From: Alphaproteobacteria bacterium
GTDB taxonomy: Bacteria > Pseudomonadota > Alphaproteobacteria > SHVV01
DNA: 64,000 nt
Reading direction: 5' to 3'
Assembly (NCBI GenBank): GCA_965247665.1
Contig: CBDFHH010000004.1
Coordinates: forward strand, 844,595-908,594
The notes beneath the pieces are model-generated. The model saw only the letters and a list, made by a program, of their open reading frames with translations. It was not told where the DNA came from and ran no database searches. The position numbers were made by a program, and so were the translations under genes. Positions within the stretch are counted from its first letter, which is position 1. Each line of letters opens with the position of its first letter. Below are positions 1,006-19,505 of this stretch, piece by piece.

Positions 1006-1028
1006 TCTTGTTATTACTTGAAACAAGA
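1006..1028. promoter_or_regulatory. 7-bp inverted repeat TCTTGTT-N9-AACAAGA directly upstream of the GntR-family gene; candidate autoregulatory operator.
   Basis: Perfect reverse-complement arms at 1006-1012 and 1022-1028, sitting in an AT-rich 500-bp intergenic region. GntR/HutC operators are typically short palindromes of the GT..AC type. A TTGACA hexamer lies at 992-997. Confidence 0.25.
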
Positions 1029-1030
1029 GA

Positions 1031-1852: not shown

Positions 1853-1858
1853 AAGCCC

Positions 1859-3070: not shown

Positions 3071-3352
3071 GAGTCATCGGTTAGGGCGCAATCGAGGCAA
3101 CAAACCCCACGAACGCGCTGCCTCCATACCCGCCGGCAGCGTCGTCGTCGCGGACCCGCCACCCTTGCCGGCAGACGCGTTCGCAGAGAAAGGTATCGAC
3201 CATGGACCTTTATGCGGGCATTATTGTGGACGTTCATCCGCGGCCCCCGGCAAAGCTGTCGTGTGTCCAAACTCACAGCTTCAACCGCAAGTCCGAATGA
3301 ACAACCTCCCTGGCAACGACATCTAGGCTACGGCCCATAGGGGAAAGCTACG

Positions 3353-4354: not shown

Positions 4355-4355
4355 A

Positions 4356-5153: not shown

Positions 5154-5302
5154 GTAGGAACTCAACGCAATTGGTCTATCTCTTGCCCGGCGTTCCCAGT
5201 CATCCGCCGTCATCAATTGAGTCGATTGCGGCGGAGATCTACGCCACGCACGCGGGTTGCGTATTGAGAGTAATCGAAAAAGCACCTACTCATGCCATGA
5301 GC

Positions 5303-5332
5303 TTGACAATCTCATAGTTGTATTTGTAACAT
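5303..5332 (+). promoter_or_regulatory. Candidate sigma70-like promoter (TTGACA-18 bp-TAACAT) in the AT-rich intergenic region upstream of the HDAC-family gene.
   Basis: Consensus -35 hexamer at 5303-5308 and a 4/6 -10 match at 5327-5332, inside the locally AT-rich 350-bp gap 5154-5504. This would imply a ~170-nt 5' UTR. Confidence 0.25.
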
Positions 5333-5504
5333 CTGAAAACAAAAGCTTGTCGTAAAGAATGCAAGCTGCGAGAAAGCTGAAACGGGGAAGGGGTGACTGA
5401 GAGTTGATGCCGCCTGCGGTGCTCTAACATGCGCTGCGCCTCGGCGGTCAGCGAACCAGCCCGTCGACAAGACACCTCGACACGACAGGGAGGTTGAACC
5501 AGCG

Positions 5505-6614
5505 GTGAGCACAGCGGTTGTCTGGGATGATCGCTTTGGCATCCACGACATGGGGGAAGCCGCTCTCTACATTCCCCCCGCTGGTATCGTCGAGTCCGAT
5601 CTCCATATCGATAACCCCACCCGGATTGTTCGTACCAGGAACGTTATCAGTGCCGCAGGTCTGGACGAAATATTGACACTTCGCGCGCCGCGCGAAGCCA
5701 ACCTAGACGAGCTCACACGGGTCCACTCGGCCGAGCACATCGAGCGGATGCAAGGGGTTTCAACAGCCGGCGGCGGAGACGCCGGCTGCGGGTATACACC
5801 TATGGATGCGCGATCCTACGAGCTTGGAATCCTCAGTGCCGGATCGACCCTCACGGCGCTGGATCTCGTTATGCAGAGACTGGTTGAGAACGCCCACGCG
5901 ATGACGCGCCGTTCGGGGCACCACGCGTCACGGGATACCGGCTTGGGTTTTTGCATTTTCAACAACGTGGCTATTGCGGCGCGCGCCGCTCAATCGGACT
6001 ACAAGCTTAGGCGCGTTGCAATCGTCGATATCGATGCGCATCATGGAAACGGGACCGAGACAATTTTTTACGCCGACTCGAGCGTTCTAACGATCTCGAT
6101 TCAACAGGACAGATTGTTCCCGGTCGAGACAGGAGACAGCTCGTCACTGGGCGCGGACGATGCGATCGGGTACAATCTGAATGTCAACCTGCCGGCTGGC
6201 ACCGGTGATGAGGGTTATCTCTACGGATTTGACCAAATCGTCTCGCCAGCGCTTCGCGCATTCCAACCTGAACTTATCCTAGTGGCTTGCGGCGTGGATG
6301 CGAGCTACTACGACCCCATGGCGCGTCTAGCCGTTACCGCACGCGGCTTTCGTGCCATCGGCGCGCGTTTGCGTGATCTCGCTCGTGAACTGTGTTCCGG
6401 CAGGCTCGTCATGTCGCAGGAAGGTGGCTACAGCCACCAGTATGCCCCTTTCTGCTGGTTGGCGCTCATCGAAGCGATTGCTGATGTTAGCAATGCACAC
6501 GAAGATCCCTTCGAGCCGTTCCTTGATGGTGCCGGTGCGCGGGAATTGACGTTGTGGCAACAGAGCACCATAGACGCGACGACGCGTGCAATGGAAGGAT
6601 ACTGGCATCGATGA
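5505..6614 (+). CDS. Histone-deacetylase-family amidohydrolase (acetoin utilisation AcuC / acetylpolyamine amidohydrolase-like).
   Basis: HDAC-fold motifs RSGHHASRDTGLGFCIFNNVAIAA, VDIDAHHGNGTETIFY, MSQEGGY. GTG start at 5505 preceded by RBS AGGGAGG. Confidence 0.85.
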   Translation: MSTAVVWDDRFGIHDMGEAALYIPPAGIVESDLHIDNPTRIVRTRNVISAAGLDEILTLRAPREANLDELTRVHSAEHIERMQGVSTAGGGDAGCGYTPMDARSYELGILSAGSTLTALDLVMQRLVENAHAMTRRSGHHASRDTGLGFCIFNNVAIAARAAQSDYKLRRVAIVDIDAHHGNGTETIFYADSSVLTISIQQDRLFPVETGDSSSLGADDAIGYNLNVNLPAGTGDEGYLYGFDQIVSPALRAFQPELILVACGVDASYYDPMARLAVTARGFRAIGARLRDLARELCSGRLVMSQEGGYSHQYAPFCWLALIEAIADVSNAHEDPFEPFLDGAGARELTLWQQSTIDATTRAMEGYWHR

Positions 6615-6778
6615 TTGTGTATTGCTGGTGTCTCCTCGCTAGTCCGCACCAGCTTGGTGTGGTTACACGAAGAACGTTCCAGATCGAGGGTCGCTTAATC
6701 CCTTCGAGTACTAAAGCGTGCCAGCGTTAGAACTACACTATGAGCCTATTACCCAATCATACGTCGAGGGAGGTAACC

Positions 6779-7801
6779 ATGTGGACTTCAAGTACGGACA
6801 TCCGAGAGCGCAGTACTTGCCGGCGCCCAAGAGCGATATGGTCGCTTGCCTGTGCCACTCTTCTATCTCTTGCCATGGTCGCTATTTGCTTTGGTAGTGT
6901 CGCGCAAGCAGACCAAGCCAGAGTTGGCGGCCTTTTCACGCAGTCCGTCAGTCAGGGTAATTGGGATCCGGGAGGATATGCCGGGTTCAAAGCAATGTGC
7001 GAGAAGTACAACTTCCAGTGCTCACACGTCGAGCACGCTACCTACGAAAAAGCGCCAGCCATCCTGCGTGATCTCGCTTCCAAGGGATACGATCTCATCA
7101 TCACCCATAGTGGGGGGTACGCGTCGGCAATTTGGGAGGTCGCCCCTGAGTTTCCGGACACCGAATTCGTCCTTTACAGCTGGGCTAATACGACAAAAGA
7201 CTTGAAGAACTACTCCGCCTGGTCGATGAATTGGGACGAATACGGTTACGTTCTTGGCGTACTTGCAGGTGCAACCTCCAAATCTGGCCACATCGCATTG
7301 GTCGGAGGTGAGGCAATCCCTTCGACCAAAGAAACGATCAAGTTCATCTCGCGCGGTGCAAAGAGTGTAAACCCAGACATCAAGATCGATGTCAGCTACA
7401 TTGGATCTTGGACCGATGTCGCCAAGGGGAAGGAGATCGGCCTCCAAGCGATCGAGCGCGGCGCCGACTTTCTGATCCCGATTGCTGACACCGCTGGCGC
7501 TGGCGTGCAACAAGCGGCAGAGGAGAATGGCAAGTTGACTATGGGAGAGTATATTGACCAAAGTGCCTCTTATCCGAAGTCAATTGTTACAAGCACGCTT
7601 CTAGATTACGTGGGTGCATTCGACGAGATCGGCGAGGCTTTTACTCAGGGTAAACTCAACGGCCAGATCGTCCAACTGAACATCGATACTGGCGACTTTA
7701 CTATGAATAAGCCTTTCCAGCATGTTGCGCCAGATGTCGAGGAAAAAGTCATGAAAGTGTTTCACGGTATTGGCGAAGGCACGATCAAAGTGAATGAGTA
7801 A
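6779..7801 (+). CDS. BMP-family (PnrA/Med-like, nucleoside-type) ABC transporter substrate-binding lipoprotein/periplasmic protein.
   Basis: Signal peptide with RR (RRPRAIWSLACATLLSLAMVAICFGSVAQA), followed by a BMP-fold pattern (GGLFTQSVSQGNWD...IITHSGGY...ALVGGEAIPST...FLIPIADTAGAGVQQA). Strong RBS GGGAGG 6 nt before the ATG at 6779. The upstream ATG at 6740 was rejected. Confidence 0.85.
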   Translation: MWTSSTDIRERSTCRRPRAIWSLACATLLSLAMVAICFGSVAQADQARVGGLFTQSVSQGNWDPGGYAGFKAMCEKYNFQCSHVEHATYEKAPAILRDLASKGYDLIITHSGGYASAIWEVAPEFPDTEFVLYSWANTTKDLKNYSAWSMNWDEYGYVLGVLAGATSKSGHIALVGGEAIPSTKETIKFISRGAKSVNPDIKIDVSYIGSWTDVAKGKEIGLQAIERGADFLIPIADTAGAGVQQAAEENGKLTMGEYIDQSASYPKSIVTSTLLDYVGAFDEIGEAFTQGKLNGQIVQLNIDTGDFTMNKPFQHVAPDVEEKVMKVFHGIGEGTIKVNE

Positions 7802-7809
7802 CCGCTGAA

Positions 7810-9354
7810 GTGCCTGACGAACGAGAGCCACTCGCTCGCCTTGAGGGAATCACAAAGCGTTTTCAGGGTGGAGTTATCGCCAACCGAACGGTGGATCTCA
7901 CCCTTTATGGGGGTGAGATCCACGCGCTTGTCGGCGAAAATGGCGCAGGTAAGACGACGCTAATGAACATCCTCTTTGGGCTTGTCGAGCCAGACGAGGG
8001 GAAGATCTTTGTTGGCAACAGATTAGTCCGCCATAGCACACCAGCCGACGCGATTGCCAACGGCATCGGCATGGTACATCAGCATTTCAAACTGGTGTCT
8101 CGGCTAACAGTGGCGGAAAACTTGATCTTGGGTCGTTTTCGCGACGCGGGATTGCGCCTTGCGCCTCGGCGAGTCGCTATGGAGATCGTAGAACTCTCAC
8201 GCCAGTATGGACTTGATGTCGAACCCAACGCCATCGTCGGCTCGCTACCCTTGGCCGGTCAACAACGTGTTGAAATCCTCAAGGCTCTCTACCAGGACGC
8301 ACGTGTATTAATCCTAGACGAACCCACAACAGTTTTGAACCCGGACGAGGTGGAGCGCCTGTACGAGGTGCTTGTTTCCCTAGCACTTGAAGGGCGTAGT
8401 ATTGTTTTAATTACGCATCACCTTGATGAGGTATTTCGGTTTAGCAATTATGTTTCGGTGCTCCGGTTAGGGCAGATCGTGGGCTCTGGGTGGACCAAGA
8501 ACATTACTCGGGAGAAGATAGCTAAACTCATCGTCGGTCGGGAGTTCAAATCCGCCGGCGATTTGCGGAGCGAATCAAACGCTAATTTAGGGCCGCTGCT
8601 GCTCGAGATTGACCATGTGTCCCTGCCTGGCTCAACGTTTTCAACCGGCCTTAACGATGTAACACTAAAGGTTCACGGCGGTGAAGTCATGGCTATTGCT
8701 GGGGTCGAGGGCAACGGTCAGCGCGAGCTGTTCGAAATTGTATCGGGCTTGCGTCGGCCAACGGATGGTCGGGTGGCAATCGGCGGCCTAAAGGGCCAAC
8801 CGCGTAACCGAAAGCACTCGGCGGAACTTGGTCTTAGGGTTGTCCCTGAGGATCGTCACTCAGAAGGACTGGTACTGGATCTAACTGTGGCCGAGAACCT
8901 GGTGGTTGATTGCATTGACAGCCAACCATACGCCGAATTCGGCTGGCTCAACCGTAAGACCATCAGATCCATTGCGATCTCATTGCTGAAGCGCTTTGAC
9001 ATACGTGCCTCAAGTTCTGATGTAGCGGTAAGAACGCTATCCGGTGGAAATCAACAAAAAGTAGTTTTAGCGCGTGCTCTTCGGGACGGCGCCGGGGTCC
9101 TGCTCGCTCATCAGCCGACGCGGGGCCTGGACGTCGGTGCAACTGAGGAAATCCTCCAACAGATTTCGACCGCCGCGGATGCTGGCGCCGCAGTTCTGCT
9201 CATTTCAAGCAGCCTTGATGAAGTGATTCGTATGGGTGACCGCATCATCGTATTTTATCGAGGTCGGATCGCCGGCGAGACTTCAAGGCAAAACGCTTCT
9301 ATCGAGCAAATCGGACGCTGGATGACAGGTGTTCGGTCAGATGAGGCGGCTTGA
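7810..9354 (+). CDS. ABC transporter ATP-binding protein with two fused ATPase domains (sugar/nucleoside CUT2-type).
   Basis: Two Walker A motifs (GENGAGKTT; GVEGNGQRE-type second domain), LSGGNQQKVVLARAL signature; 514 aa. Confidence 0.9.
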   Translation: MPDEREPLARLEGITKRFQGGVIANRTVDLTLYGGEIHALVGENGAGKTTLMNILFGLVEPDEGKIFVGNRLVRHSTPADAIANGIGMVHQHFKLVSRLTVAENLILGRFRDAGLRLAPRRVAMEIVELSRQYGLDVEPNAIVGSLPLAGQQRVEILKALYQDARVLILDEPTTVLNPDEVERLYEVLVSLALEGRSIVLITHHLDEVFRFSNYVSVLRLGQIVGSGWTKNITREKIAKLIVGREFKSAGDLRSESNANLGPLLLEIDHVSLPGSTFSTGLNDVTLKVHGGEVMAIAGVEGNGQRELFEIVSGLRRPTDGRVAIGGLKGQPRNRKHSAELGLRVVPEDRHSEGLVLDLTVAENLVVDCIDSQPYAEFGWLNRKTIRSIAISLLKRFDIRASSSDVAVRTLSGGNQQKVVLARALRDGAGVLLAHQPTRGLDVGATEEILQQISTAADAGAAVLLISSSLDEVIRMGDRIIVFYRGRIAGETSRQNASIEQIGRWMTGVRSDEAA

Positions 9355-10439
9355 GGGAATCCATCTCGCAGCTCAGGCGTGTCCGCGCGACATTTCTGGC
9401 TCGGCTTGTGCGGCCGAGCCGACCAGGCAGCAACACACTTATTGTCTTGGGCGCCATTGCCGCTAGCATTTTCGCTGGCGCGTTGACAGTAACGATTATT
9501 GGCGTCTCGCCCGTGCAGGCGCTTATTGTAGTTATCCAAGGATCAGTCGGTTCACTTCGAGGCTTAGGCGATTCACTCGTATTCGCAACACCGCGTTTGT
9601 TCGTAGCCCTCGGCACAATCGTCGCCGTGCGCTGCGGAGTGTTTAACCTCGGCGGTGAAGGCCAGCTTCAACTAGGGGCGATTGGTGCCGTGCTCGCTGG
9701 CACAATGGTGGGTCAAATCGTTCCTCCGCTGCACATCGCATTCGCTGTCCTCTCCGCAATGGCATTTGGTGCTGCGTGGGCCATGCTCGCGATCTTGCTC
9801 AAGTTGTGGCGCGGCGCCGACGAGATCATCGTAACGCTTATGATGAACTTTATCGGAATCTTTCTTGTCGCCTATTTGGTGGAGGGACCGCTTCAGCCAC
9901 CGGATTCCATTTTCAATATGTCGGAGAGGATAGAACAGACCTCCCGGCTACCAATACTAATTCCAGGCACGCGACTACATTTGGGTTTTGTGATCGCCCT
10001 TGCCGCTACTGCCGCGGTTTGGTGCTTGCTCTACCGAACGTCTCTTGGGGTACAGCTGCGTGCGACGGGTCTCAACCCCAAAGCGGCACGCCTCCAGGGA
10101 CTGTCGACAGGTCAGCTGATGTTCGTGTCAATGGCGATATCCGGTGCCGTGGGTGGTTTGGCGGGAGCCGGAGAAGTACTTGGGGTACAGTTCCGGCTGA
10201 TCGAGGGTTTCAGTTCCGGCTTTGGATTCGAAGGCTTGGCGATCGCGTTCCTTGGCGGTCTTGAGCCAATCCCTGTTCTGCTCATTGCTATCTATTTTGG
10301 CATCATACAAAACGGAACAACGGCGTTGCAGAGCACCCTCAGTGTGCCTGCTTCACTCGTTTACATCATGGTAGCGCTGCCAATATTGTTCTTGGCAGGC
10401 GCGCAGGGATGGCGGCTTATGCGCGGTGGGACCGCGTGA
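9351..10439 (+). CDS. ABC transporter permease (BMP-family / ribose-type, first TMD).
   Basis: Polytopic hydrophobic protein of 362 aa. Overlaps the ATPase stop by 4 bp, which suggests translational coupling. Confidence 0.85.
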   Translation: MRESISQLRRVRATFLARLVRPSRPGSNTLIVLGAIAASIFAGALTVTIIGVSPVQALIVVIQGSVGSLRGLGDSLVFATPRLFVALGTIVAVRCGVFNLGGEGQLQLGAIGAVLAGTMVGQIVPPLHIAFAVLSAMAFGAAWAMLAILLKLWRGADEIIVTLMMNFIGIFLVAYLVEGPLQPPDSIFNMSERIEQTSRLPILIPGTRLHLGFVIALAATAAVWCLLYRTSLGVQLRATGLNPKAARLQGLSTGQLMFVSMAISGAVGGLAGAGEVLGVQFRLIEGFSSGFGFEGLAIAFLGGLEPIPVLLIAIYFGIIQNGTTALQSTLSVPASLVYIMVALPILFLAGAQGWRLMRGGTA

Positions 10440-11377
10440 ACGTGGACGAAATTACCATCATCGCGTTATTCCTCGCCTCGGCGATCCGCCTCGCTGGGCC
10501 GGTGCTGCTCGCGGCACTTGGCGAAGTCGTTTCGCAACGAGCCGGCGTCTTAAATGTTGGACTCGAAGGGTTAATGTTGGTTGGTGCCTTCGCCGCCGTG
10601 GTTGGTGCTGGCGCAACCGGATCGGCGCTGTACGGTGCAATGATTGGTGCCGGCGTGGCCTGCCTGTGCGGACTGGCGTTCGGGGTTCTCGTCGGCGTGC
10701 TTAGGGCAGATCAGATCGTGGCTGGAATTGGCCTTAACATATTGGCTCTTGGTGTGACCACACTGCTGCGGGAGGAGCTGATTCCAACACAGATCACACC
10801 GGTTCCAGCTGGCGTATTAGGCCCTATGGCAATCCCGTTGCTGAGTGAGCTACCCATCTTGGGCCGGGGGGTTTTTTCTCAAAGTCCCTTCATCTACGGA
10901 GCTTTGCTGCTAGCTATTCTTCTTTGGTACTTCTTGCGCTTCACATCGCCGGGTCTCGTTTTACGTTCGGTTGGAGAGGGTGCAACCGCAGCCGACTCCG
11001 CGGGCATCCCTGTCCTGTCGATACGGGTCGCCGTGGTAGCATTTGCGGGCCTAATGGCCGGGTTCGGCGGTGCCTACTTGTCGCTCGTTGCTGCCGGCGG
11101 TTTCTTCGTAGACAACATCACAGGTGGCCGCGGTTATCTTTCAATTGCCGTAGCAATTTTCGGACGCTGGCATCCTTTGTGGGTATGCGCGGCTGCGCTC
11201 TTGTTTGGGGCCGCTGACGCACTCCAGTACCAAGGTCAGCTACTGGGGTTGGCAGTACCAACGTCTATTCTGCTCATGTTCCCCTTCTTGCTTGCACTCG
11301 TAACATGGGTGCTCCTTGGTCGCAGCAAGGCGGCTCCTGCGGATCTGCTCCGACCATTCGTGCGGGCACAGAACTAA
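10409..11377 (+). CDS. ABC transporter permease (second TMD).
   Basis: 322-aa polytopic membrane protein overlapping the upstream permease by ~30 bp; start codon uncertain. Confidence 0.8.
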   Translation: MAAYARWDRVNVDEITIIALFLASAIRLAGPVLLAALGEVVSQRAGVLNVGLEGLMLVGAFAAVVGAGATGSALYGAMIGAGVACLCGLAFGVLVGVLRADQIVAGIGLNILALGVTTLLREELIPTQITPVPAGVLGPMAIPLLSELPILGRGVFSQSPFIYGALLLAILLWYFLRFTSPGLVLRSVGEGATAADSAGIPVLSIRVAVVAFAGLMAGFGGAYLSLVAAGGFFVDNITGGRGYLSIAVAIFGRWHPLWVCAAALLFGAADALQYQGQLLGLAVPTSILLMFPFLLALVTWVLLGRSKAAPADLLRPFVRAQN

Positions 11378-11432
11378 GCGGGGCCAACACTTTGGAATTC
11401 TCTAGAGCGCATCATTATTCGTACTAAGACAG

Positions 11433-13667
11433 TTGAAGTATCGAGGGCGGGAAATCAAGCGCGTCGAGGATTGGCGGCTTCTCAGGGGCGGCGGCCAATA
11501 TGTGGACGATATTCACGTCCCCAATGCAGCATACGCCGTCTTCGTGCGCAGTCCCCACGCGCATGCTGTGATCAAGCAAATTGAAACGGGCCAGGCAACC
11601 TCGATGCCCAACGTGCTCGCCGTGCTGAAGTCCGCAGATTGGGAAGCAAACGGCGGCGCTGACCTTCCGTGCATCCAAACTGTTCGTTCCAGCGATGGAA
11701 CACCCGCGCGAGAGGTATGGCGTCCCGTATTCGCCAAGGATCGTGTTCGTCATGTCGGAGAAATCGTTGTACTCGTGGTTGCCAGCACTCCTTGGCGAGC
11801 CGCCGATGCTGCCGAAGCTATCGAGATTGACTACGAGCTTCTGCCTTGTGTGACAGATGCTTGCGAGGCGCTCGAGCTTGGTGCACCGCAGGTCCATGAT
11901 GACGTTCCCGGCAATGTTGTTTACGACTGGTCGATCGGAGACAAGGTGGCGGTGGCGCAAGGCTTTGCGCGCGCAACACACGTGACGCGGACCGATCTTG
12001 TTAACAACCGCCTTCACCACCTGCCCATTGAGCCACGTGCAGTGATCGGTGCCTACGACCCAGCCAGGGAGCACTACACTCTGTGGTCGTCGACGCAGGT
12101 ACCTCATTTGATCCGTCAACTTCTAGTTGAGCACACACTCCGGGTGGCCGAACCAAACCTGCGCGTTATAGCGCCTGACGTGGGTGGTGGCTTCGGTCTA
12201 AAGGCGGTGCATTACGCCGAGGAAGCTGCAGTACTCTGGGCTTCCCGACTAGTTGGCCGCCCCGTGCGCTGGACTTCGACCCGCACGGAGGCCTTCATCG
12301 CCGACGTCCACGGCCGTGCCCAAGTTGCGCACGCCGAGATGGCCTTCGACGCCGAGGGCCGTATTCTTGCGCTACGCGTCGACACGGTTGCCAACATGGG
12401 TTCTTGCCTTGCCACTCTCGGGCCGGCGATACCATCCAAGTTCGGCTTACCAAGCCTCTGTCAGCTCTATGCGATTCCTGCGACCTACGCACGAGTACGC
12501 GCGGTATACACCAACACTTTACCCGTCGACGCCTATCGAGGTGCTGGCCAGCCAGAAGCGACCTACATCGTTGAACGCTTGATCGAGCAAACCGCGCGCG
12601 AACTTAGGATAGATCCTTTAATTCTCCGAGAGCGCAATCTCATCCCCGCGAACGCGTTCCCTCACACGACAGCCACCGGCGCCGTGTATGACTCTGGCGA
12701 CTATCCGGCCTTGTTGGCGAGAATGAAAGAGTTTGCTGGATATGAGGCGCTGCGGGTGCAGCAACAACAACTGAGAGAGTCTGGCACGCTGGTGGGTATC
12801 GGCATATCAGCGTACATCGAGAGTGCCGCTGACAGCCCGAGCCGTGAGACAGCCTCCGGTGGTAGCCGTGTCGGAAGTTGGGATGCTGCAAGCGTGCGCA
12901 TCCACCCGAGTGGCGCGGTCACGATCTACAGCGGCGGCCATTCCCATGGACAGGGTCATGATACCACGTTCCGCCAGGTGGCTGCCGATTACCTCGGCTG
13001 CAAGCTGACTGAGATCCAACTCGTGTCGGGTGACACCGATCGCGTGCATGCCGGAATGGGCACGTTCGGGTCGCGCTCGATCACGGTGATCGGCAGTGCG
13101 ATCGCGATCGCAGCTCAACGCGTCGTGATCAAGGGAGGCAAGCTCGCCGCGCACTTACTCGAGTGTGCCGAGACCGATATCGATTTCGAGAATGGCGACT
13201 ATGTCGTGCGAGGCATACACCTCGCGGTCGTGCTTGTCGACCCTGAGTGCGGCTTGGTCCGTTTGCTATACTATGTTGCCGTCGATGACTGTGGCCGGGT
13301 GATCAATCCCATGATTGTCGAGGGCCAAGTCCAAGGCGGAGTCGCACAGGGCGTTGGGCAGGCGCTGCTTGAATGCATCGTCTACGATGTCGAGACGGGG
13401 CAACCAACCTCTGGCTCGCTCTTGGATTATGCTGTGCCACGCGCCGCGGATTTGCCGTCGTTTCGCAATGCGAGGATTGAAACTCCGGCTCCCGACAATC
13501 CGCTTGGCGTAAAAGGGATCGGCGAGGCGGGAGCCGTCGCAGCCCCACCAGCAATCGTGAACGCAGTTCTCGATGCGCTTGCGCCGCTCGGTGTCCGCCA
13601 TCTCGACATGCCCTTGACGCCGTTGAGAGTTTGGGAGGCGATTCGAGCTGGAGGCAGGAGTTCCTAA
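11433..13667 (+). CDS. Xanthine-dehydrogenase-family molybdopterin-binding large subunit (aldehyde oxidase / form-II CoxL-like). Orphan: no adjacent small or FAD subunit.
   Basis: N-terminal RVEDWRLLRGGGQYVDDI, AYRGAGQPEATYIVERLIEQ motif (non-CO-dehydrogenase type), C-terminal molybdopterin domain; 744 aa. Confidence 0.85.
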   Translation: MKYRGREIKRVEDWRLLRGGGQYVDDIHVPNAAYAVFVRSPHAHAVIKQIETGQATSMPNVLAVLKSADWEANGGADLPCIQTVRSSDGTPAREVWRPVFAKDRVRHVGEIVVLVVASTPWRAADAAEAIEIDYELLPCVTDACEALELGAPQVHDDVPGNVVYDWSIGDKVAVAQGFARATHVTRTDLVNNRLHHLPIEPRAVIGAYDPAREHYTLWSSTQVPHLIRQLLVEHTLRVAEPNLRVIAPDVGGGFGLKAVHYAEEAAVLWASRLVGRPVRWTSTRTEAFIADVHGRAQVAHAEMAFDAEGRILALRVDTVANMGSCLATLGPAIPSKFGLPSLCQLYAIPATYARVRAVYTNTLPVDAYRGAGQPEATYIVERLIEQTARELRIDPLILRERNLIPANAFPHTTATGAVYDSGDYPALLARMKEFAGYEALRVQQQQLRESGTLVGIGISAYIESAADSPSRETASGGSRVGSWDAASVRIHPSGAVTIYSGGHSHGQGHDTTFRQVAADYLGCKLTEIQLVSGDTDRVHAGMGTFGSRSITVIGSAIAIAAQRVVIKGGKLAAHLLECAETDIDFENGDYVVRGIHLAVVLVDPECGLVRLLYYVAVDDCGRVINPMIVEGQVQGGVAQGVGQALLECIVYDVETGQPTSGSLLDYAVPRAADLPSFRNARIETPAPDNPLGVKGIGEAGAVAAPPAIVNAVLDALAPLGVRHLDMPLTPLRVWEAIRAGGRSS

Positions 13668-13720
13668 TACACGAAATGGCGCCCTGAACTCTGCGGTAAG
13701 CGGCGATGGCGAGCTGCGTT

Positions 13721-13780
13721 GCCCAAAGGCTCTTCAAGTTGCCCAAAGGCTCTTCAAGTTGCCCAAAGGCTCTTCAATAT
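13721..13780. repeat. Tandem direct repeat, 3 x 20 bp (GCCCAAAGGCTCTTCAAGTT), in the convergent intergenic region.
   Basis: Units at 13721-13740 and 13741-13760 are identical; 13761-13780 has 2 terminal mismatches. No spacers, so not a CRISPR array. Confidence 0.85.
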
Positions 13781-13931
13781 GACAGGGATTCTCAGTCTGA
13801 ACCCAGCCGGATAATTGGAAATCGGAATATCTCGTCTCAAATGGTTTGCGGCTCGCCGCACCTACCTACCTGCGTTTCCTCTATTGCCGTTCGTCCTAAC
13901 CCACAAAGGAGCAGCGCCCTGTCTTGGCTCG

Positions 13932-15320
13932 TTAACCAATACTGGGTAGCAGGCTTCCCAAGGGAACTGGCTTGATCGGCACACGGGGCTCGTTCACACC
14001 AAGGCTTTTCGGCGACACACCCAGAATCTGCGCTGCAACATGGGCAAGGCTCCAAGCGCAGACACGTCCCTGGCATGGACCCATCCCGCAGCGTGTCCAC
14101 ATCTTGATAGCCGCTGCGGTCTGAGCGCCGCTGTCAATTGCCTCGCGAACATCGCGTACACAGATGTCCTCGCAACGACAAACGATGGTGTCGTCCGTCA
14201 TCAAGCCGACGGTAGGGTTCTTCGCGGTGAATGTCTTGTTCACGTGATCGGCCAGAGCTTGAAAGCGGCGTCGCCGACGTCGCGCGCGGTCGAGCCGCCG
14301 TTGAGCTTCCACCGTCCAGTGTCCCAGAGTCCGGCCCGCGCACAATCCCGCTATTCTCCCTTCCTCGAGCGCCGCTCGCCATCCCGCCACGCCGGTGACC
14401 TCACCCGCCGCATAAATCTTCTCAACTGAAGTCTCCCCGGTGTTGTGGTTCACGGTGCATATTCGACCTCCCTCAATGTCGCTATACCCGTGCTCACAGC
14501 CTGCTAGGGCGGTCAATTCCGTGGAAGGTCGAAATCCTTGTCCGACTACGAGAATGTCCGCCTGGACATCGTGCTTCTGTCCAGCTACCTGCCCACTTCG
14601 ATAGTCGAGCGGGGAAATTGAAACGTGTTCGACGGCGCTCCGACCGTGAGCCGCCGTCACAACCGAACTCAAATGTACTGGGACATGGTGGCGACGAAGC
14701 GACCAGAGATACGTTACCAACTCGGACCAGATTTCCGGGAACTGCAAGGCGCCAAGCGCAGCGAGCGGCGCAAAGCGCGCAGATTCGACGTAAGCGGCGA
14801 TTTCCACACCTGATTTGAGCAGTTGCTGCGCTACAACCAGAAGGAACGGGCCATTCCCCGCCAACACGGCACGCTGACCTAACCTCACGCCCTCCGCCTT
14901 TATCAAGCGCTGCGCTCCGCCAGCGGTTAGGACCCCAGGAAGCGTCCAACCTGGAAAGGCCAAATTCCGGTCGTGCGCACCAGTTGCAATGATCAGACGT
15001 TCGCTCAAGATCTCCTGGGAGATACCACCGCGATAGACAGTAATCCGGCGCTCAGGGAACAAGCCCCAGACCTGTACGCTGGCCCAGATTTCGGCTCCTG
15101 CATCACGCACCTGTTTCACGAGCTTACGTCCCCGTCGGATTTCGGCGGACAGGGCACCATCGGTTCGGCTCGCCGGGGTAGGCTGCATGAAATACTGCCC
15201 GCCCGGAGAGACACTCTCATCGAGCAAGAGCACTTTGGCGCCCAATGAAGATGCTTCGAATGCCGCAGCCAGGCCGGCTGGCCCGGCACCAACGACGACG
15301 ACCTCCGCCATTATTACCAT
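13932..15320 (-). CDS. FAD/NAD(P)-binding oxidoreductase with BFD-like [2Fe-2S] domain (HcnB / opine-oxidase subunit A / sarcosine-oxidase-alpha-like).
   Basis: Rossmann GXGXXG (VVVVGAGPAGLAAA) and BFD-like CRCEDICVRDVREAI...RCGMGPCQGRVC segment. The start overlaps the stop of the upstream 2Fe-2S gene by 1 nt. Confidence 0.8.
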   Translation of the reverse strand: MVIMAEVVVVGAGPAGLAAAFEASSLGAKVLLLDESVSPGGQYFMQPTPASRTDGALSAEIRRGRKLVKQVRDAGAEIWASVQVWGLFPERRITVYRGGISQEILSERLIIATGAHDRNLAFPGWTLPGVLTAGGAQRLIKAEGVRLGQRAVLAGNGPFLLVVAQQLLKSGVEIAAYVESARFAPLAALGALQFPEIWSELVTYLWSLRRHHVPVHLSSVVTAAHGRSAVEHVSISPLDYRSGQVAGQKHDVQADILVVGQGFRPSTELTALAGCEHGYSDIEGGRICTVNHNTGETSVEKIYAAGEVTGVAGWRAALEEGRIAGLCAGRTLGHWTVEAQRRLDRARRRRRRFQALADHVNKTFTAKNPTVGLMTDDTIVCRCEDICVRDVREAIDSGAQTAAAIKMWTRCGMGPCQGRVCAWSLAHVAAQILGVSPKSLGVNEPRVPIKPVPLGSLLPSIG

Positions 15321-15610
15321 TACGTTGGCAACCGACCGAGTTCGACAACCATTCCTTCCAGCACACGGATCTGGCAGGCTCGTTGCGCCCGCCGGCCATC
15401 AACCGTTACCAAACACTCGAAGCAGACTCCCATCGCGCAGAACAAACCTCTCGGTTCTTGACGCAGTAGCGAATGACGTAGAACTCTTGTCTCATGCGCA
15501 AGCAGGGTCGCGGCCAGGGTTTGACCCTGCGGCGCATGTATCTCTTGACCATTGACCCACAGAGTAACCAATTGTCCCTCGGGCATTGCTCGGCTTGGGG
15601 AATTGGGCAT
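15320..15610 (-). CDS. Small (2Fe-2S)-binding subunit (HcnA-like). Start uncertain: 15610 or 15586.
   Basis: Core sequence EGQLVTLWVNGQEIHAPQGQTLAATLL...CAMGVCFECLVTVDGRRAQRAC is typical of HcnA / 2Fe-2S subunits of heteromeric amino-acid/opine oxidases. No clear RBS. Confidence 0.6.
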   Translation of the reverse strand: MPNSPSRAMPEGQLVTLWVNGQEIHAPQGQTLAATLLAHETRVLRHSLLRQEPRGLFCAMGVCFECLVTVDGRRAQRACQIRVLEGMVVELGRLPT

Positions 15611-15614
15611 GACT

Positions 15615-16787
15615 CTAGGTGGGCCCCATCGGAATTGAACCGACGCTAAAGCGAGTAGGGTCGTATAGTGCAATCGCCGGTGAGTCGTCCCCTTCGACTA
15701 TTAGCTGAGCAAGGGTCTCCGCAACTACTGGGGCGCGAACGAAACCGACACCACAATCCCCTGCAGCCATGAGAAAACCTCGAACTGACGGGAACTGCCC
15801 TACCAAGAACCGATCATCGGGGGTGACAGCTTCGTAACGTACCCAGGAACGAAGTAGGGGTACATCTGACAGAGTTGGGAAAAGCCACAGCAACGTCTCA
15901 ATTGAATTCAGGACAAAAGATAAATCGACGTCCAAGTCTCCGAGCTGATCGCTCTCTTCCCGCAAACCACCCGCGGGCACGGTGTTGAATAAAACCTGTC
16001 CGCTGTGCGCTTGTTGAATCTGTGTATATCCTGCTTTGGCACCACCAGCCGACTCACAGGATCCAACGACACAGGGGATCGTGGGGTCAAGGCGATCGGT
16101 TGCCAGACATTGTGCCTTGCGTGGCCGTATCGGGATTTCGAGGCCAACCATCGCAGCGAGCTGCCGCGCCCAAGGGCCAGTCGCGTTCACGAAGCAGCAT
16201 GTTGCCACGCGATGCGAACCGGATCGTACGGCGCGGACCGCGCCAGCCTCGATTTCCACCGCCGTCACTGGGCTTTGCGATAGGACGACGGCCCCTTGTC
16301 GTACAGCCGCCTCAATCAAGGCTCGGCAGCTAAGAAACGGATTCACGGTGGCGTCATCTGATGACCAAGTTGCGCCGACGATCGGACCCGTCAGAGCCGG
16401 GACAATCTCCCGTACGGTCGCGGGATTAATGAGTTCAACCTGGAGGCCGAGCTTCCGTTCTGCCTCGACCCATTCGCGCGCGATGGCCAGATCGTCCTCA
16501 CGCGCGATAAACCTCATTTGACCGCAGCGCTGATACTCGAAATCTCGGTCTAGTTCGTCGACCAAGTGCTCCCAGAGTGTGCATGCACGGCGCAGATAAG
16601 GGATCTCTTCGATATCGATCATGTGCGCGCCGATGCAAGCCAAGCTGGCGCCAGTTACCGCCCCACCAATGTTCCCCGTTTCCAGAATGACAACAGATAG
16701 GCCTCGTTTGGACAAAGCGTGGGCGGTCGCACAACCGACGATACCCGCGCCGGCGATGACCACGTCGGCAGTACTCGGGAACGTCAT
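15615..16787 (-). CDS. FAD-dependent oxidoreductase, DAO family (HcnC / opine-oxidase subunit B / sarcosine-oxidase-beta-like).
   Basis: N-terminal ADVVIAGAGIVGCATAHALSKRGLSVVILE dinucleotide fold, DAO-family architecture; 390 aa. Overlaps the next gene (16784) by 4 bp. Confidence 0.8.
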   Translation of the reverse strand: MTFPSTADVVIAGAGIVGCATAHALSKRGLSVVILETGNIGGAVTGASLACIGAHMIDIEEIPYLRRACTLWEHLVDELDRDFEYQRCGQMRFIAREDDLAIAREWVEAERKLGLQVELINPATVREIVPALTGPIVGATWSSDDATVNPFLSCRALIEAAVRQGAVVLSQSPVTAVEIEAGAVRAVRSGSHRVATCCFVNATGPWARQLAAMVGLEIPIRPRKAQCLATDRLDPTIPCVVGSCESAGGAKAGYTQIQQAHSGQVLFNTVPAGGLREESDQLGDLDVDLSFVLNSIETLLWLFPTLSDVPLLRSWVRYEAVTPDDRFLVGQFPSVRGFLMAAGDCGVGFVRAPVVAETLAQLIVEGDDSPAIALYDPTRFSVGSIPMGPT

Positions 16788-17710
16788 GATCGAATCTTGG
16801 TATCCGGTGGAGCGTCTGTCCAGAAACGGTCTTCAATCACTCCTTGCAGAACGGCATTGTCGATCTCCTCGCCCAAGGCCTCAAGGGCACTGACCGCCCG
16901 TGCGACGTGGACAGAATCGGGAAAGCCTAAACCGTATTCAAGCGTCGCACCTACAAACGTCAAGGCACGGATATCGCGAAGCTGCTTGTCCTGTTCCGTC
17001 TTTGACAGCCCAAACCAAGAGTCAGTGCAGATGTCCACCGCTTCTTCTCGGTTTCGAAAAGCCCAGGCCCAACCACTCAGCACCGTATTTACAACCGCCT
17101 GCACAAAATCTGGTCGTTCCTGCACCAGAGAACGTCTCGCGATCAAGCCGTCCTTGATCAAACTTGCATCGAAATCTTCTGGTACGAATAGATGCAGTTC
17201 ATCGCGCGTAAGCCCCGCATCCTCAATTTGGTGTAGTTCGTGATAGACTGTGATCTGAGCGCACTTGGTTTCGCCGGCAATAAAAGGTGCGACCGTATCC
17301 TCTTGGGCCACGCGTTCGACAGCTTGTGGATCAACATTGGCGCGTCGCAACATCCACCGAAACTCAAGATCCTCTCCACCAGGCCACACGCCAACCTTTT
17401 GCCCGACTAACTGAGACAGCTGCGTGATGCCGCTATCCTTGCGTACCGGATAAACCAGTGGACTATCCTGCTGAATGACTAGCAGCAAATTCAGGTCTTG
17501 AGGCACGCTCTCCACGATGTGAGCCGGGCTGGCGACACCGAAATCGCTTGCCCCCGAGAGGACAGACCGCACTGGGCCCACGTCAAAATCTAGCGGTGTC
17601 GTCTCAAGGCGGATATCGAACTGTTCGCCCAGACTCAGCCGCTCGGCTACCAGATAGCCGGCAAATTGAGCCTGGGGATGCCACATCAAATTTATCGTCG
17701 CCGTTTCCAT
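16784..17710 (-). CDS. NMT1/THI5-like (SsuA/ThiY-type) substrate-binding-fold protein. No obvious signal peptide from the chosen start.
   Basis: Start taken at the internal ATG (METATINLMWHPQAQFAGYLVA...), which matches the N-termini of NMT1/THI5-family proteins. The 54-codon upstream extension in the track looks non-coding. Confidence 0.6.
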   Translation of the reverse strand: METATINLMWHPQAQFAGYLVAERLSLGEQFDIRLETTPLDFDVGPVRSVLSGASDFGVASPAHIVESVPQDLNLLLVIQQDSPLVYPVRKDSGITQLSQLVGQKVGVWPGGEDLEFRWMLRRANVDPQAVERVAQEDTVAPFIAGETKCAQITVYHELHQIEDAGLTRDELHLFVPEDFDASLIKDGLIARRSLVQERPDFVQAVVNTVLSGWAWAFRNREEAVDICTDSWFGLSKTEQDKQLRDIRALTFVGATLEYGLGFPDSVHVARAVSALEALGEEIDNAVLQGVIEDRFWTDAPPDTKIRS

Positions 17711-18121
17711 GCTGGATCCGTATGCTGTCCGACCTTGCCCCGATGGGCCACCTTGCTGACGGGTACGCCCAAGAGATTCCCTTCTCAAATCGCGAGATGC
17801 GTGTCGTAGCGCTTCTCTGACCAAGCTGGAACACCAACACAAGCGCGACGTCAGTCGACCGCGTCGCAATCATCTGATTGGTATGGCCGACACCGAATGC
17901 ATCAGTGCCGTTGATCATAACGTTGGCTGGCTTTCGATGCGAGCCTGCGCGCGGTAGCTCAATGTCAGCGCCTTCCTCCCTGCAGCGACCCCTATCCGCT
18001 ACAACGCGGGAACGGACGAACTGCCTCGTAACACACGATCAGGTGGATTCCCGTGGCCGTCAACGCACCAATCCCCAAATTGGGCAGTGTGGCAGCGATC
18101 GGAGCCGCCACCCCAGCGAAG

Positions 18122-18440
18122 TGAGGTGGCTCCGGAGAATTGGACAGGTAGCTAAGGTGTCTTCCCCCGAGTGAGGAGGGGTACGCGATGAGCAAGAGAC
18201 GCAGGTTTTCCGGGGAGCTGAAGGCGAAGATCGCTCTGGACGCCCAGCGCGGGGATCGGACACTGCAGGAGATTGCTTCGAAGCATCAGGTTCATCCGAA
18301 CCAGGTGAGCACGTGAAAGGGCCAGACGATCGAGGGCCGGGGCAAGGTCTTCTCGAACGGCGCCGAACGGCGGGTCCGGGATCACGAGAGCGAGCTCCGA
18401 GATCTTCACGCGAAGATCGGGGAGTTGATCGTGGAACGGA
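18122..18440 (+). mobile_element. IS3-family insertion-sequence remnant: putative left terminal repeat plus 5' part of transposase orfA, carrying a premature TGA and truncated after ~85 codons. It marks the junction between the moderate-GC and high-GC blocks.
   Basis: TGAGGTGGCTCC... at 18122 resembles IS3-family ends, with RBS GAGGAGGGG upstream of orfA. The ATG at 18188 encodes MSKRRRFSGELKAKIALDAQRGDRTLQEIASKHQVHPNQVST, a near-canonical IS3/IS911 OrfA N-terminus. The conserved Trp codon is TGA at 18314-18316. The frame then continues KGQTIEGRGKVFSNG...ELRDLHAKIGELIVE (leucine-zipper region) and homology is lost at about 18440. Confidence 0.7.
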
Positions 18441-18512
18441 TGAGGCGGTCGGAGCGGCGGGCCATGGTGGCGCGCGATCACCCGTCGCCGGCCAGCCTTG
18501 GTCGCGCCGCCG

Positions 18513-19505
18513 CTACCCCCACAGCTCCGGCCTCGGCGGCAGCACCATGCCGTCGCGGTATTCGAGCGCGGGCTTTCGGTCGCGCGCGAGCAGCAGCGGG
18601 CCGTCGAGATCGACATAGTCGGCGAGGCCAGCGAGCAGAACCGCCGGCGCCACGGCCAACGAGGTCGCAACCATGCAACCGACCATGATCTTGAGATCGA
18701 GGGCATGGGCCGCCCGCGCGAGGTCGATCGCCTCGGTCAGCCCGCCGGTTTTGTCGAGCTTGATGTTGATCATGTCGTAGCGTGCCGCCAGTACGGCGAG
18801 GCCGTCGCGGTGGTGGCAGGACTCGTCGCCGCAGACGCTGAGCGGACGTGCCATCGCGGCGAGCGCTTCGTCCGCGTCGGCGGGCAGCGGCTGCTCGACC
18901 AGCTCGACTCCGAGTTGCGCCAAGCCTGCGAGACCGGGCTCGAGTTGTGCGGGTGTCCACGCCTCGTTGGCGTCGACGATGATGCGCGCCTCGGGAACCG
19001 CTTTGCGCACCGCAGCGACGCGGTCCATGTCGCCGTCGCCGCCGAGCTTGAGCTTGAGCAGCGGCTGACCGGCCGCTTTACGCGCCTTCGCGGCCATCTC
19101 GCCGGGTGGACCGAGGCTGATGGTGAAGGCGGTGATGGCGGCGACCGGTGCGTCGAGCCCGGCGATCGCCCAGGCCGGCCGGGCCTGTTGCTTGGCTTCG
19201 AGATCGAACAGCGCGCAATCGACCGCATTGCGGGCGGCGCCAGCCGGCATATGTGCGCGCAACTCCTCGCGCGAGATCCCGTTTTCGATATCGGCGCGGA
19301 ACGCTTCGATCTGTCCGACCACCGATTCGATACTTTCGCCGTAACGCGCGTAGGGCACACATTCGCCGCGCCCGGCGGCGTTGCCCTCCCGGATCACGCA
19401 GCTCACGACATCGATCTCGGTGCGGCTGCCGCGCGAGATCGTGAAGGTTCCCTCGGTCGGGAACCGTTCGTTGCGCAGCGCCAGGGTGCGCCTGGCGGAG
19501 GTCAC
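18513..19505 (-). CDS. Enolase-superfamily dipeptide epimerase (L-Ala-D/L-Glu epimerase-like; mandelate racemase / muconate lactonizing enzyme family).
   Basis: GTG start at 19505 (VTSARRTLALRNERFPTEGTFTISRGSRTEIDVV...), then ...TISLGPPGEMAAKARKAAGQPLLKLKLGGD...IIVDANEAWT...VEQP metal-ligand pattern. The track's 459-aa ORF includes a rejected upstream extension. Overlaps the DUF1611 stop by 4 bp (GTGA). Confidence 0.8.
   Translation of the reverse strand: MTSARRTLALRNERFPTEGTFTISRGSRTEIDVVSCVIREGNAAGRGECVPYARYGESIESVVGQIEAFRADIENGISREELRAHMPAGAARNAVDCALFDLEAKQQARPAWAIAGLDAPVAAITAFTISLGPPGEMAAKARKAAGQPLLKLKLGGDGDMDRVAAVRKAVPEARIIVDANEAWTPAQLEPGLAGLAQLGVELVEQPLPADADEALAAMARPLSVCGDESCHHRDGLAVLAARYDMINIKLDKTGGLTEAIDLARAAHALDLKIMVGCMVATSLAVAPAVLLAGLADYVDLDGPLLLARDRKPALEYRDGMVLPPRPELWG

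What the first reader, a model, noticed from the sequence alone, without database searches (positions are those of the whole stretch)
17870..18520. Abrupt compositional boundary coinciding with a degraded IS3 element
By eye, sequence left of about 18.1 kb is moderate-GC with frequent A/T-ending codons (for example BMP transporter, NMT1-like gene), while everything right of about 18.45 kb is strongly GC-biased. The junction holds only the first ~85 codons of an IS3-family orfA (TGG to TGA nonsense at 18314; homology lost near 18440) with a plausible terminal repeat at 18122.

This looks like the scar of a horizontal-acquisition or rearrangement event that joined two DNA segments of different origin. 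Alternatively it is a chimeric assembly join at a repeated IS.
Basis: seen in the sequence. Interest (0 to 1): 0.55.

Follow-up and report, generated by a model that had tools for sequence, protein, structure and literature searches.

The report
Genomic island edge with IS3 remnant
The sharp change in base composition is real: it marks the right-hand end of a roughly 20-kb strain-specific, lower-GC island capped by a dead fragment of an IS3-family insertion sequence, which is an ordinary though unusually well documented scar of horizontal acquisition.

Summary
Observation confirmed. GC falls from 0.640 (right) to 0.565 (left). A single change point sits near 18.0 kb, with log-likelihood ratio 153 against 9.5±4.9 for shuffled blocks. 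GC3 is 0.58-0.65 on the left and 0.71-0.88 on the right, and tetranucleotide signatures differ.

The junction holds a 365-bp IS3-family remnant (18122-18486):
- an intact left terminal repeat with its TG tip at 18122
- an orfA helix-turn-helix region with a TGA nonsense codon at 18314
- a 26-nt internal gap near 18438
- truncation at 18486, 26 bp beyond the dgcA stop codon

Three other metagenome assemblies of the same species (about 99% identical) settle the interpretation. Two of them (L085, L086) carry neither the remnant nor the low-GC DNA; they have 720 bp of other sequence between the same flanks. So the window carries a roughly 19.9-kb island, which extends 1.46 kb beyond the window start, and its right end is the truncated IS. 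The third assembly (L001) has the same remnant-to-core junction but lacks window 1253-18121 (16,869 bp). That deletion ends exactly at the IS tip and truncates a gntR-like gene that is intact in the window, which is a classic IS-adjacent deletion.

A chimeric join is very unlikely. No donor lineage was identified. This is an ordinary kind of feature and interest is low.

The parts
1..18121 (.). Body of the lower-GC island inside the window (GC 0.565). By comparison with L001 and L085 it continues 1,459 bp beyond the window start. Total island length including the IS remnant is about 19,945 bp.
   Evidence: composition. (the left border corresponds to L001 16269|16270; the island is absent from L085 and L086).
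1253..18121 (.). 16,869-bp segment present in the window but missing from sibling-strain contig L001. The deletion ends flush with the IS tip, with 2 bp (TG) ambiguous.
   Evidence: blastn shows window 1-1252 = L001 14810-13560 and window 18122-31680 = L001 13561-1; junction alignment.
1031..1852 (+). GntR/UTRA regulator gene. It is intact in the window and cut at codon 74 by the L001 deletion, which makes the window state ancestral for this segment.
   Evidence: PF00392 and PF07702..
16784..17710 (-). NMT1/THI5-like (NitT/TauT-type) substrate-binding protein gene, the last intact island gene before the IS. Its only close relative is 86% identical, on a 57%-GC JGI contig (L084).
17844..18121 (.). 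278 bp of unassigned island DNA between the end of L084 homology and the IS tip (GC 0.608). The minus strand at about 17,800-18,040 gives a weak match to the NMT1 N-terminus, so this may be a decayed gene fragment.
   Evidence: homology to L084 stops at 17843. (no similarity to the 720 bp of the empty site). (NMT1 E 3.8e-4). (GC).
18122..18486 (+). IS3-family remnant of 365 bp, about 29% of a roughly 1.26-kb element. The left terminal repeat starts TGAGGTGGCTCCGGAGAATTGGACAGG at 18122. The orfA ATG is at 18188. TGA replaces Trp at 18314-18316. A 26-nt internal gap removes the frameshift region near 18438. The element is truncated at 18486. There is no orfB/DDE part and no right terminal repeat.
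   Evidence: The truncation point is fixed.
18487..18512 (.). 26-bp core spacer between the island end and the dgcA stop codon. This is the first sequence shared with the island-free strains.
18513..19505 (-). dgcA-like gene (N-acetyl-D-Glu racemase / dipeptide epimerase, enolase superfamily). It is the first core gene, followed by a DUF1611 gene at 19502-20494 (-), which I take from general knowledge to be the dgcN partner.
   Evidence: Pfam. (names given by the sources). (conserved neighbourhood in L001, L085, L086 and L087).

Best explanation
The window comes from a roughly 64%-GC alphaproteobacterial genome. In this strain the variable interval between dgcA and recJ carries a roughly 19.9-kb, 56.5%-GC accessory island of foreign origin. 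The boundary under review is the right end of that island.

ISLAND CONTENT. The genes are:
- a GntR regulator
- an M20 amidohydrolase
- a luciferase-like monooxygenase
- an alpha/beta-hydrolase
- an HDAC-family amidohydrolase
- a BMP-type ABC transporter
- a CoxL/XDH-like molybdenum enzyme subunit
- a three-part set of FAD and Fe-S oxidoreductase genes
- an NMT1-type binding protein
- TenA and an alcohol dehydrogenase, just outside the window

THE END ITSELF. The island ends in a 365-bp dead fragment of an IS3-family insertion sequence. Its intact left terminal repeat faces the island interior. Its truncated body abuts core DNA 26 bp beyond the dgcA stop codon.

SHOWN:
- The island and remnant are present in two assemblies and absent in two others of the same species.
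- In the island-free strains 720 bp of other sequence occupies the site.
- In one island-bearing strain, 16.9 kb next to the IS has been deleted exactly up to the IS tip.

INFERRED:
- The island entered as one piece of DNA that already carried the IS, or it integrated with the help of the IS.
- A deletion with one endpoint inside the IS then removed the IS right-hand part together with adjacent DNA, creating the abrupt junction.
- The 16.9-kb loss in L001 is an IS-end-directed adjacent deletion of the type well documented for IS3-family elements.
For: COMPOSITION..

IS IDENTITY AND ANATOMY..

EMPTY SITE. L085 1-10795 matches window 29281-18487 at 98.95%. Then come 720 bp unique to L085 (GC 0.61). 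Then L085 11516 onward matches L001 16270 onward at 97.5%. L086 gives the same pattern. A 99-codon ORF in L085 (11358-11657) reads across the left junction.

SISTER SPECIES. L087 has dgcA 81% identical, a 274-bp spacer, and then recJ.

SIBLING STRAIN WITH THE ISLAND. L001 has the same remnant, differing at only 3 sites over the 365 bp with no indels. It shares the nonsense codon, the internal gap and the truncation point. Its deletion of window 1253-18121 is flush with the IS tip and cuts gntR.

RARITY OF ISLAND GENES. Among 5.8 billion proteins, the NMT1-like protein has a self-match, then 86%, then 62% or less. The XDH-like protein has a self-match, then 58% or less. A 2.8-kb JGI contig with the same gene order is 83% identical at the DNA level and has GC 0.574.

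LITERATURE. Adjacent deletions of 14 bp to 48.9 kb next to IS150 (IS3 family), without target-site duplications, are reported in PMC11708052.
Against: - No donor lineage was identified. Both blocks have only distant, alphaproteobacterial named relatives.
- The island has no integrase, no adjacent tRNA gene and no flanking direct repeats, so the integration mechanism is inferred rather than shown.
- The junction 18121|18122 (island body to IS tip) is seen only in the window, because L001 has the deletion there.
- Polarity (insertion in the window lineage versus loss in L085/L086) rests on composition and on the 99-codon ORF spanning the L085 junction. The sister species lacks the whole interval and so gives no outgroup for this site.
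- The 99-codon ORF has no Pfam match.
- The remnant was apparently already dead when the L001 deletion happened, because all its defects are shared. A simple cis-acting adjacent deletion does not explain that.
Confidence: 0.85

Rival explanations
1. Chimeric assembly: two unrelated contigs were joined through a repeated IS copy, so the left and right blocks are not physically contiguous.
For: The junction contains IS sequence, and ISs are typically repeated. The exact junction 18121|18122 was not found in any other assembly.
Against: - L001, an independent assembly from another ENA analysis, links the same IS remnant and core flank to window 1-1252, which is the far end of the same low-GC block.
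- The gntR-like ORF is continuous across 1252|1253, so 1-18121 is one piece.
- The remnant is only 365 bp, and no other copy or orfB fragment exists in the window.
- The source contig is reported as 1,135,842 bp long.
Confidence: 0.03
2. Reversed polarity: the low-GC block and the IS are ancestral at this site in the species, and L085/L086 lost them through a replacement that left 720 bp of other DNA. On this reading the boundary is not an acquisition scar in the window lineage.
For: - The sister species L087 lacks the entire interval and cannot polarise the event.
- Deletions next to this IS demonstrably occur, as in L001.
- The 99-codon ORF that spans the L085 junction has no family match.
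Against: - The 720 bp in L085/L086 has no counterpart in the island-bearing strains, so a simple deletion cannot produce the L085 state.
- The island is the compositional outlier (GC 0.565, GC3 about 0.6) compared with 0.64 in 45 kb of flank and 0.61 in the 720 bp.
- Even under this rival, the block would remain foreign DNA acquired earlier in the lineage.
Confidence: 0.1
3. The coincidence of the IS with the boundary is accidental: the IS inserted into, and then decayed at, a pre-existing island edge and played no part in acquisition or rearrangement.
For: - There is no second IS copy or remnant at the other island border.
- No target-site duplication can be tested.
- ISs often accumulate at island edges.
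Against: - The island ends exactly at the truncated end of the IS (18486|18487). The remnant co-occurs strictly with the island in 2 of 2 island-bearing strains and 0 of 2 island-free strains.
- If an independent later insertion had been truncated by a deletion, some island or core DNA beyond the IS would probably survive, which is not seen.
- The L001 deletion shows that this IS end has been recombinationally active.
Confidence: 0.1

Closest known systems
IS3-family insertion sequences. The nearest found are annotated 'IS3 family transposase' elements on Sulfitobacter, Thioclava, Paracoccus and Phaeobacter plasmids, for example NZ_CP084955.1 91.9-93.2 kb (1,257 bp).
   Same: The terminal repeat starts with TG and is colinear from the very tip. 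OrfA carries HTH_Tnp_1 and is 57% identical in amino acids. DNA identity is 66-70% over the first 220-300 bp.
   Different: Only 365 of about 1,260 bp remain. There is a nonsense codon at codon 43. The frameshift window is deleted (26-nt gap). There is no orfB/DDE domain and no right terminal repeat. The element is non-autonomous and cannot transpose by itself. The subgroup within IS3 was not determined.
Strain-specific genomic (metabolic) islands in variable regions between conserved core genes
   Same: Atypical GC, GC3 and tetranucleotide usage. Presence/absence polymorphism among roughly 99%-identical strains. Cargo of transport and catabolic genes. A mobile-element remnant at the edge. Location in an interval that also varies between species.
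   Different: No integrase, no tRNA attachment site and no flanking direct repeats. Insertion was accompanied by replacement of 720 bp of resident DNA, so this is not a classical site-specific integrative island.
IS-adjacent deletions, for example IS150 in the E. coli long-term evolution experiment (PMC11708052)
   Same: The deletion in L001 starts exactly at the IS terminus, extends 16.9 kb into flanking DNA, leaves the IS sequence in place and truncates a gene at the far end.
   Different: Here the IS is a truncated, nonsense-carrying remnant with one end only, and its defects are shared by the deleted and undeleted strains. The transposase, if one was involved, must have come from elsewhere, or the event was a recombination with a second, transient copy.

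Membership tests
IS3 family insertion sequence | OrfA with a helix-turn-helix of the HTH_Tnp_1 type | tested here: met
   PF01527 E 4.2e-10 with 40.1 bits (cutoff 24.1). 57% identity over 82 aa to OrfA of an annotated IS3-family element.
IS3 family insertion sequence | OrfB with a DDE (rve) catalytic domain | tested here: not met
   No tblastn match to OrfB anywhere in the window or in L001. The element ends at 18486. Absence is due to truncation, so this is a remnant and not a functional member.
IS3 family insertion sequence | Programmed -1 frameshift motif between orfA and orfB | tested here: not met
   A 26-nt gap relative to the Sulfitobacter element removes the GAAAACGATTTTTTG region.
IS3 family insertion sequence | Imperfect terminal inverted repeats ending 5'-TG...CA-3' | tested here: inconclusive
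   The left repeat is present with its TG tip at 18122 and is conserved with relatives. The right repeat is absent from the window.
IS3 family insertion sequence | 3-4 bp target-site duplication | not testable with these tools
   Only one end survives.
Genomic island (horizontally acquired, strain-specific) | Composition deviating from the host genome | tested here: met
   The host is represented only by 45.5 kb of the window plus the flanks in L001 and L085.
Genomic island (horizontally acquired, strain-specific) | Presence/absence polymorphism between close relatives with conserved flanks | tested here: met
   L085 and L086 lack it, and the window and L001 carry it. Flanks are 97.5-99.2% identical.
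Genomic island (horizontally acquired, strain-specific) | Integrase, tRNA attachment site and flanking direct repeats | tested here: not met
   No tRNA genes in the window. No Rfam hits. No integrase among island ORFs. No flanking repeats. The left border lies outside the window and was read in L001.
IS-adjacent deletion (in L001) | One deletion endpoint exactly at the IS terminus, with the IS retained | tested here: met
   The junction reads ...GGTAATC|TGAGGTGGCTCC..., with 2 bp ambiguous.
IS-adjacent deletion (in L001) | Active transposase acting on that end | not testable with these tools
   The local copy is dead in both strains. The rest of either genome could not be searched for intact copies.

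The most novel reading that the evidence does not exclude
A dead, one-ended IS3 remnant (a solo left terminal repeat plus 365 bp) is still a recombination substrate. Transposase supplied in trans from another copy would have used the lone terminal repeat for a one-ended intramolecular strand transfer, producing the precise 16.9-kb flanking deletion seen in L001. On this reading IS scars remain rearrangement hotspots long after the element has died.
Probability: 0.25. Interest if true: 0.4.

Novelty: new member of a known kind. Interest (0 to 1): 0.2.

Why it matters
The value is mainly as a clean, fully resolved example. One locus shows four allelic states:
- the sister species, with dgcA next to recJ
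- the empty site in L085 and L086
- the full island in the window
- the island with an IS-flush deletion in L001

Together they document gain of a roughly 20-kb catabolic and transport island and its ongoing erosion next to an IS scar in an uncultured alphaproteobacterium. They also show that the assembly is trustworthy at this point. The finding does not open a new biological question. The only mildly unusual point is that a deletion ends exactly at the tip of an IS copy that appears to have been already non-functional.

Tried and rejected
- EXACT-PROTEIN LOOK-UPS. Look-ups for island proteins (DAO-like and Pyr_redox-like), for the 42-aa orfA fragment and for the source's own NMT1 protein (P0001) returned nothing. 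The window's own contig could therefore not be retrieved, and the rest of the genome could not be searched for the missing IS part.
- GENOME SCAN. The host species is not identified. recJ, glpX, hom and cobW were not found in those loci. dgcN is 70-73% identical in two Rhodospirillaceae MAGs.
- PLASMID DNA SEARCHES. Searches with 8 kb of each block gave only 66-74% matches to Hyphomicrobiales and other plasmids on both sides, so they do not discriminate taxonomically.
- METAGENOME SCAN. The 27-nt left terminal repeat has no exact match in JGI metagenome contigs.
- SURROGATE RIGHT END. I looked for a surrogate right end or terminal-repeat-like sequence at the L001 deletion endpoint (window 1253 onward) and at the island's left border (L001 16000-16300). 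Nothing convincing was found by eye, and no matching inverted repeat was found in window 1-20000.
- HYBRID-REMNANT TEST. If the L001 remnant were a hybrid with a second IS copy (the two-step recombination model), differences should cluster at its left end. Only 3 substitutions exist (18210, 18241, 18400), which is too few to decide.
- THE 278 bp NEXT TO THE IS TIP. It is not related to the 720 bp of the empty site, so the IS did not simply sit in that core DNA.
- SIGNALS AT THE JUNCTION. The promoter and terminator scan showed nothing above background.
Full report

Yes. In 1-kb windows, GC is 0.53-0.60 from 1 to 18,000 and 0.59-0.68 from 18,001 to 64,000.

A single-change-point likelihood scan places the break at 17,920-18,090, with GC 0.564 left and 0.640 right. 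On 500-bp blocks the log-likelihood ratio is 152.6. Two thousand block shuffles give 9.5±4.9 with a maximum of 38.1. The best residual change point inside either half scores only 9-10, so each side is internally homogeneous.

Third-codon-position GC of long ORFs is 0.58-0.65 on the left and 0.71-0.88 on the right. Strand-symmetrised tetranucleotide usage, normalised for base composition, correlates at 0.88±0.02 among right-hand 6-kb chunks but only 0.74±0.04 between left and right chunks.

2. THE IS FRAGMENT

The frame opening at 18188 matches Pfam HTH_Tnp_1 (PF01527, E 4e-10).

A distant-mode DNA search against plasmids found 17 records, all Rhodobacterales (Sulfitobacter, Thioclava, Paracoccus, Phaeobacter and others). 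Identity was 66-73%, and most matches lie under features annotated 'IS3 family transposase'. Seven of the matches begin at window 18121 or 18122.

I fetched one full relative, L002 (Sulfitobacter indolifex plasmid pDSM14862_d). It is 1,257 bp long with imperfect terminal repeats. The window sequence aligns to it from the terminal TG at 18122:

- TGAGGTGGCTCCGGAGAATTGGACAGG in the window
- TGAAGTGGTCCGGCAAAACTGGACAGC in L002

The alignment runs through orfA, which is 57% identical over 82 residues (tblastn E 4e-26). The TGA at 18314-18316 lies opposite the conserved Trp codon.

Near 18438 there is a 26-nt gap that removes the frameshift region. Weaker colinear similarity follows (MRRSERRAMVARDHPS against MSPTERKALINADRTD) and ends at about 18486. 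That last stretch is short and not convincing on its own. The end point is fixed independently in section 3.

No other copy, no orfB fragment and no right terminal repeat exists in the window.

3. WHAT SIBLING GENOMES SHOW

An exact-sequence look-up of the CobW-like protein (window 20642-21682, minus strand) returned ENA metagenome contig ERZ25067264:ctg824094 (73,954 bp), held as L001. blastn gives two colinear blocks:

- window 18122-31680 = L001 13561-1, at 99.45%
- window 1-1252 = L001 14810-13560, at 98.1%

L001 therefore lacks window 1253-18121 (16,869 bp). The junction alignment shows the break exactly at the IS tip...GGTAATC|TGAGGTGGCTCC..., with 2 bp (TG) ambiguous.

The GntR/UTRA regulator gene at 1031-1852 is intact in the window and is cut at codon 74 in L001. 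So L001 is the deletion derivative and the window holds the undeleted state.

The L001 remnant has no indels relative to the window and differs at three sites (18210, 18241, 18400). It carries the same 42-codon orfA stub. The nonsense codon, the internal gap and the 3' truncation therefore appear to predate the split of the two strains.

A homology search with dgcA (window 18513-19505, minus strand) found a 98%-identical protein on two further ENA contigs, L085 and L086. It also found an 81%-identical protein on L087, a sister species.

The L085 comparison reads as follows, and L086 gives the same pattern:

- L085 1-10795 = window 29281-18487, at 98.95%
- 720 bp found neither in the window nor in L001 (GC 0.61)
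- L085 11516 onward = L001 16270 onward, at 97.5%

These strains thus have neither the IS remnant nor any low-GC DNA. The junction sequences place the right island end at window 18486|18487, which is 26 bp beyond the dgcA stop codon. The left end is at L001 16269|16270, which is 1,459 bp beyond the window start.

The island is therefore 18,486 + 1,459, or about 19,945 bp, including the remnant. GC and GC3 in L001 agree. TenA and the alcohol dehydrogenase have GC3 of 0.61-0.65, and the genes beyond them have 0.71-0.82.

In L085 a 99-codon ORF (11358-11657) reads across the left junction, although it has no Pfam match. The 720 bp shows no similarity to the 278 bp next to the IS tip or to anything else in the window.

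In L087, dgcA is followed after 274 bp by recJ-glpX-hom. The whole dgcA-recJ interval is thus a variable region. In the window's species it also holds Fer4, EamA and GST genes and a DDE_3 transposase fragment.

4. CONTENT AND ORIGIN OF THE ISLAND

Pfam assignments for the island genes are:

- GntR/UTRA regulator
- M20 peptidase/amidohydrolase
- luciferase-like monooxygenase
- alpha/beta-hydrolase
- histone-deacetylase-family enzyme
- BMP-type ABC transporter: binding protein, duplicated ATPase and two permeases
- CoxL/XDH-type molybdopterin subunit
- Pyr_redox_2/SO_alpha_A3, Fer2_4 and DAO oxidoreductase genes in a row
- an NMT1-type binding protein

TenA and a zinc-type alcohol dehydrogenase lie just outside the window. 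There is no integrase, no tRNA gene and no Rfam match.

The island genes are rare. Apart from self-matches on a 1,135,842-bp NCBI/ENA contig (presumably the source), the NMT1-like protein has one relative at 86% and then 62% or less. The XDH-like protein has nothing above 58%.

The 86% relative sits on a 2.8-kb JGI contig (L084). That contig has the same gene order, 83% DNA identity and GC 0.574. Its homology to the window stops at 17843. This suggests that a lineage of similar GC carries the cluster, but the donor remains unidentified.

Named relatives of both blocks are distant Alphaproteobacteria, so taxonomy does not separate the two blocks.

5. MECHANISM

Shown:
- The low-GC block and the IS remnant are a strain-specific unit.
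- The unit ends at the truncated end of the IS.
- 720 bp of resident DNA is missing where the unit sits.
- A later 16.9-kb deletion ended exactly at the IS tip.

Inferred: the island arrived as a single DNA segment that carried the IS at or near its end, or it integrated through the IS. A deletion with one endpoint inside the IS then removed about 890 bp of the element plus neighbouring DNA, leaving the abrupt junction.

The L001 event has the form of an IS-adjacent deletion. These are well documented for IS3-family elements. For example, 14 of 83 IS events in three lines of the E. coli long-term evolution experiment were IS150-adjacent deletions of 14 bp to 48.9 kb (PMC11708052).

If deletion endpoints were scattered at random over even a kilobase, landing within 0-2 bp of the IS tip would have a probability of roughly 0.1-0.3%. 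This figure is my estimate.

The puzzle is that the local copy seems to have been dead already. I see three possibilities and could not discriminate among them:
- transposase supplied in trans, acting on the solo terminal repeat
- insertion of a second copy into gntR, followed by homologous recombination with the remnant
- an old deletion, followed by recombination between lineages

The three substitutions between the two remnants are too few to decide.

6. RIVAL EXPLANATIONS

Chimeric assembly is very unlikely (about 3%). An independent assembly links the same remnant and core flank to the far end of the same low-GC block. The block is continuous through an intact gene. The repeat is only 365 bp and occurs once in the window.

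Reversed polarity, in which the island is ancestral and was lost in L085/L086, cannot be excluded without a strain phylogeny. A simple deletion cannot generate the extra 720 bp, and the island is the compositional outlier.

7. COMPARISON WITH KNOWN KINDS, AND VERDICT

The fragment is a remnant of an IS3-family element. The HTH OrfA and the left terminal repeat tests are met. The DDE domain, the frameshift site and the right terminal repeat are absent because of decay.

The block is a non-classical genomic island. It shows atypical composition and strain polymorphism, but has no integrase, no tRNA site and no flanking direct repeats.

Both are ordinary kinds of feature. Novelty is limited to a new instance of known kinds. 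Interest is low (0.2). The only slightly unusual aspect is a precise flanking deletion at the tip of an apparently dead IS.

Noticed in passing
window 13718-13777: Perfect three-copy tandem repeat of a 20-nt unit (GTTGCCCAAAGGCTCTTCAA) in the intergenic gap between the XDH/CoxL-like gene and the Pyr_redox_2 gene of the island.
   Followed up: no
window 30587-33415 (+): Strong AT skew of +0.39 to +0.45 at 31-33 kb. It comes from a 942-aa SPFH/Band_7 protein whose long middle part is an E/R/K/A-rich, internally repeated coiled-coil with motifs such as EQEERDREIAL(I/L)AKA.
   Followed up: partly
window about 17,800-18,040, minus strand: A frame upstream of the NMT1-like gene gives a weak match to the N-terminal part of the NMT1 profile (E 3.8e-4, 20.8 bits against a cutoff of 20.5). 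It may be a decayed second binding-protein gene between the last island gene and the IS tip.
   Followed up: partly
window 694-1161 compared with L001: 22 of the 24 differences between the window and L001 in window 1-1252 cluster in the TenA-gntR intergenic region and the 5' end of gntR. That is about 4.7%, against 0.55% in the 13.6-kb core flank. The cause could be relaxed constraint after gntR was truncated in L001, or a recombination tract.
   Followed up: no
L085 14639-15004; L001 19.5-20.6 kb: A DDE_3 transposase fragment and a lower-GC GST gene (GC3 0.67) lie between EamA and recJ. This is a second mobile-element scar in the same dgcA-recJ variable interval, which the sister species L087 lacks entirely.
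   Followed up: partly
window 11433-13667 (+): The island's CoxL/XDH-like large subunit is 721-744 aa, whereas its relatives are 783-807 aa. No medium or small subunit genes are adjacent in the island. A complete second XDH/CO-dehydrogenase-type gene set begins at 60438-63992 in the core block.
   Followed up: no
window 26074-30510 and 44670-49787: Two paralogous isochorismatase and hydantoinase A/B clusters lie in the core block, about 67% identical in DNA over a short stretch.
   Followed up: no
L001 15118-16005: The alcohol dehydrogenase at the island's far end matches the ADH_N profile only from position 31 and starts at residue 6. It is either truncated at its 5' end or has a miscalled start.
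   Followed up: no
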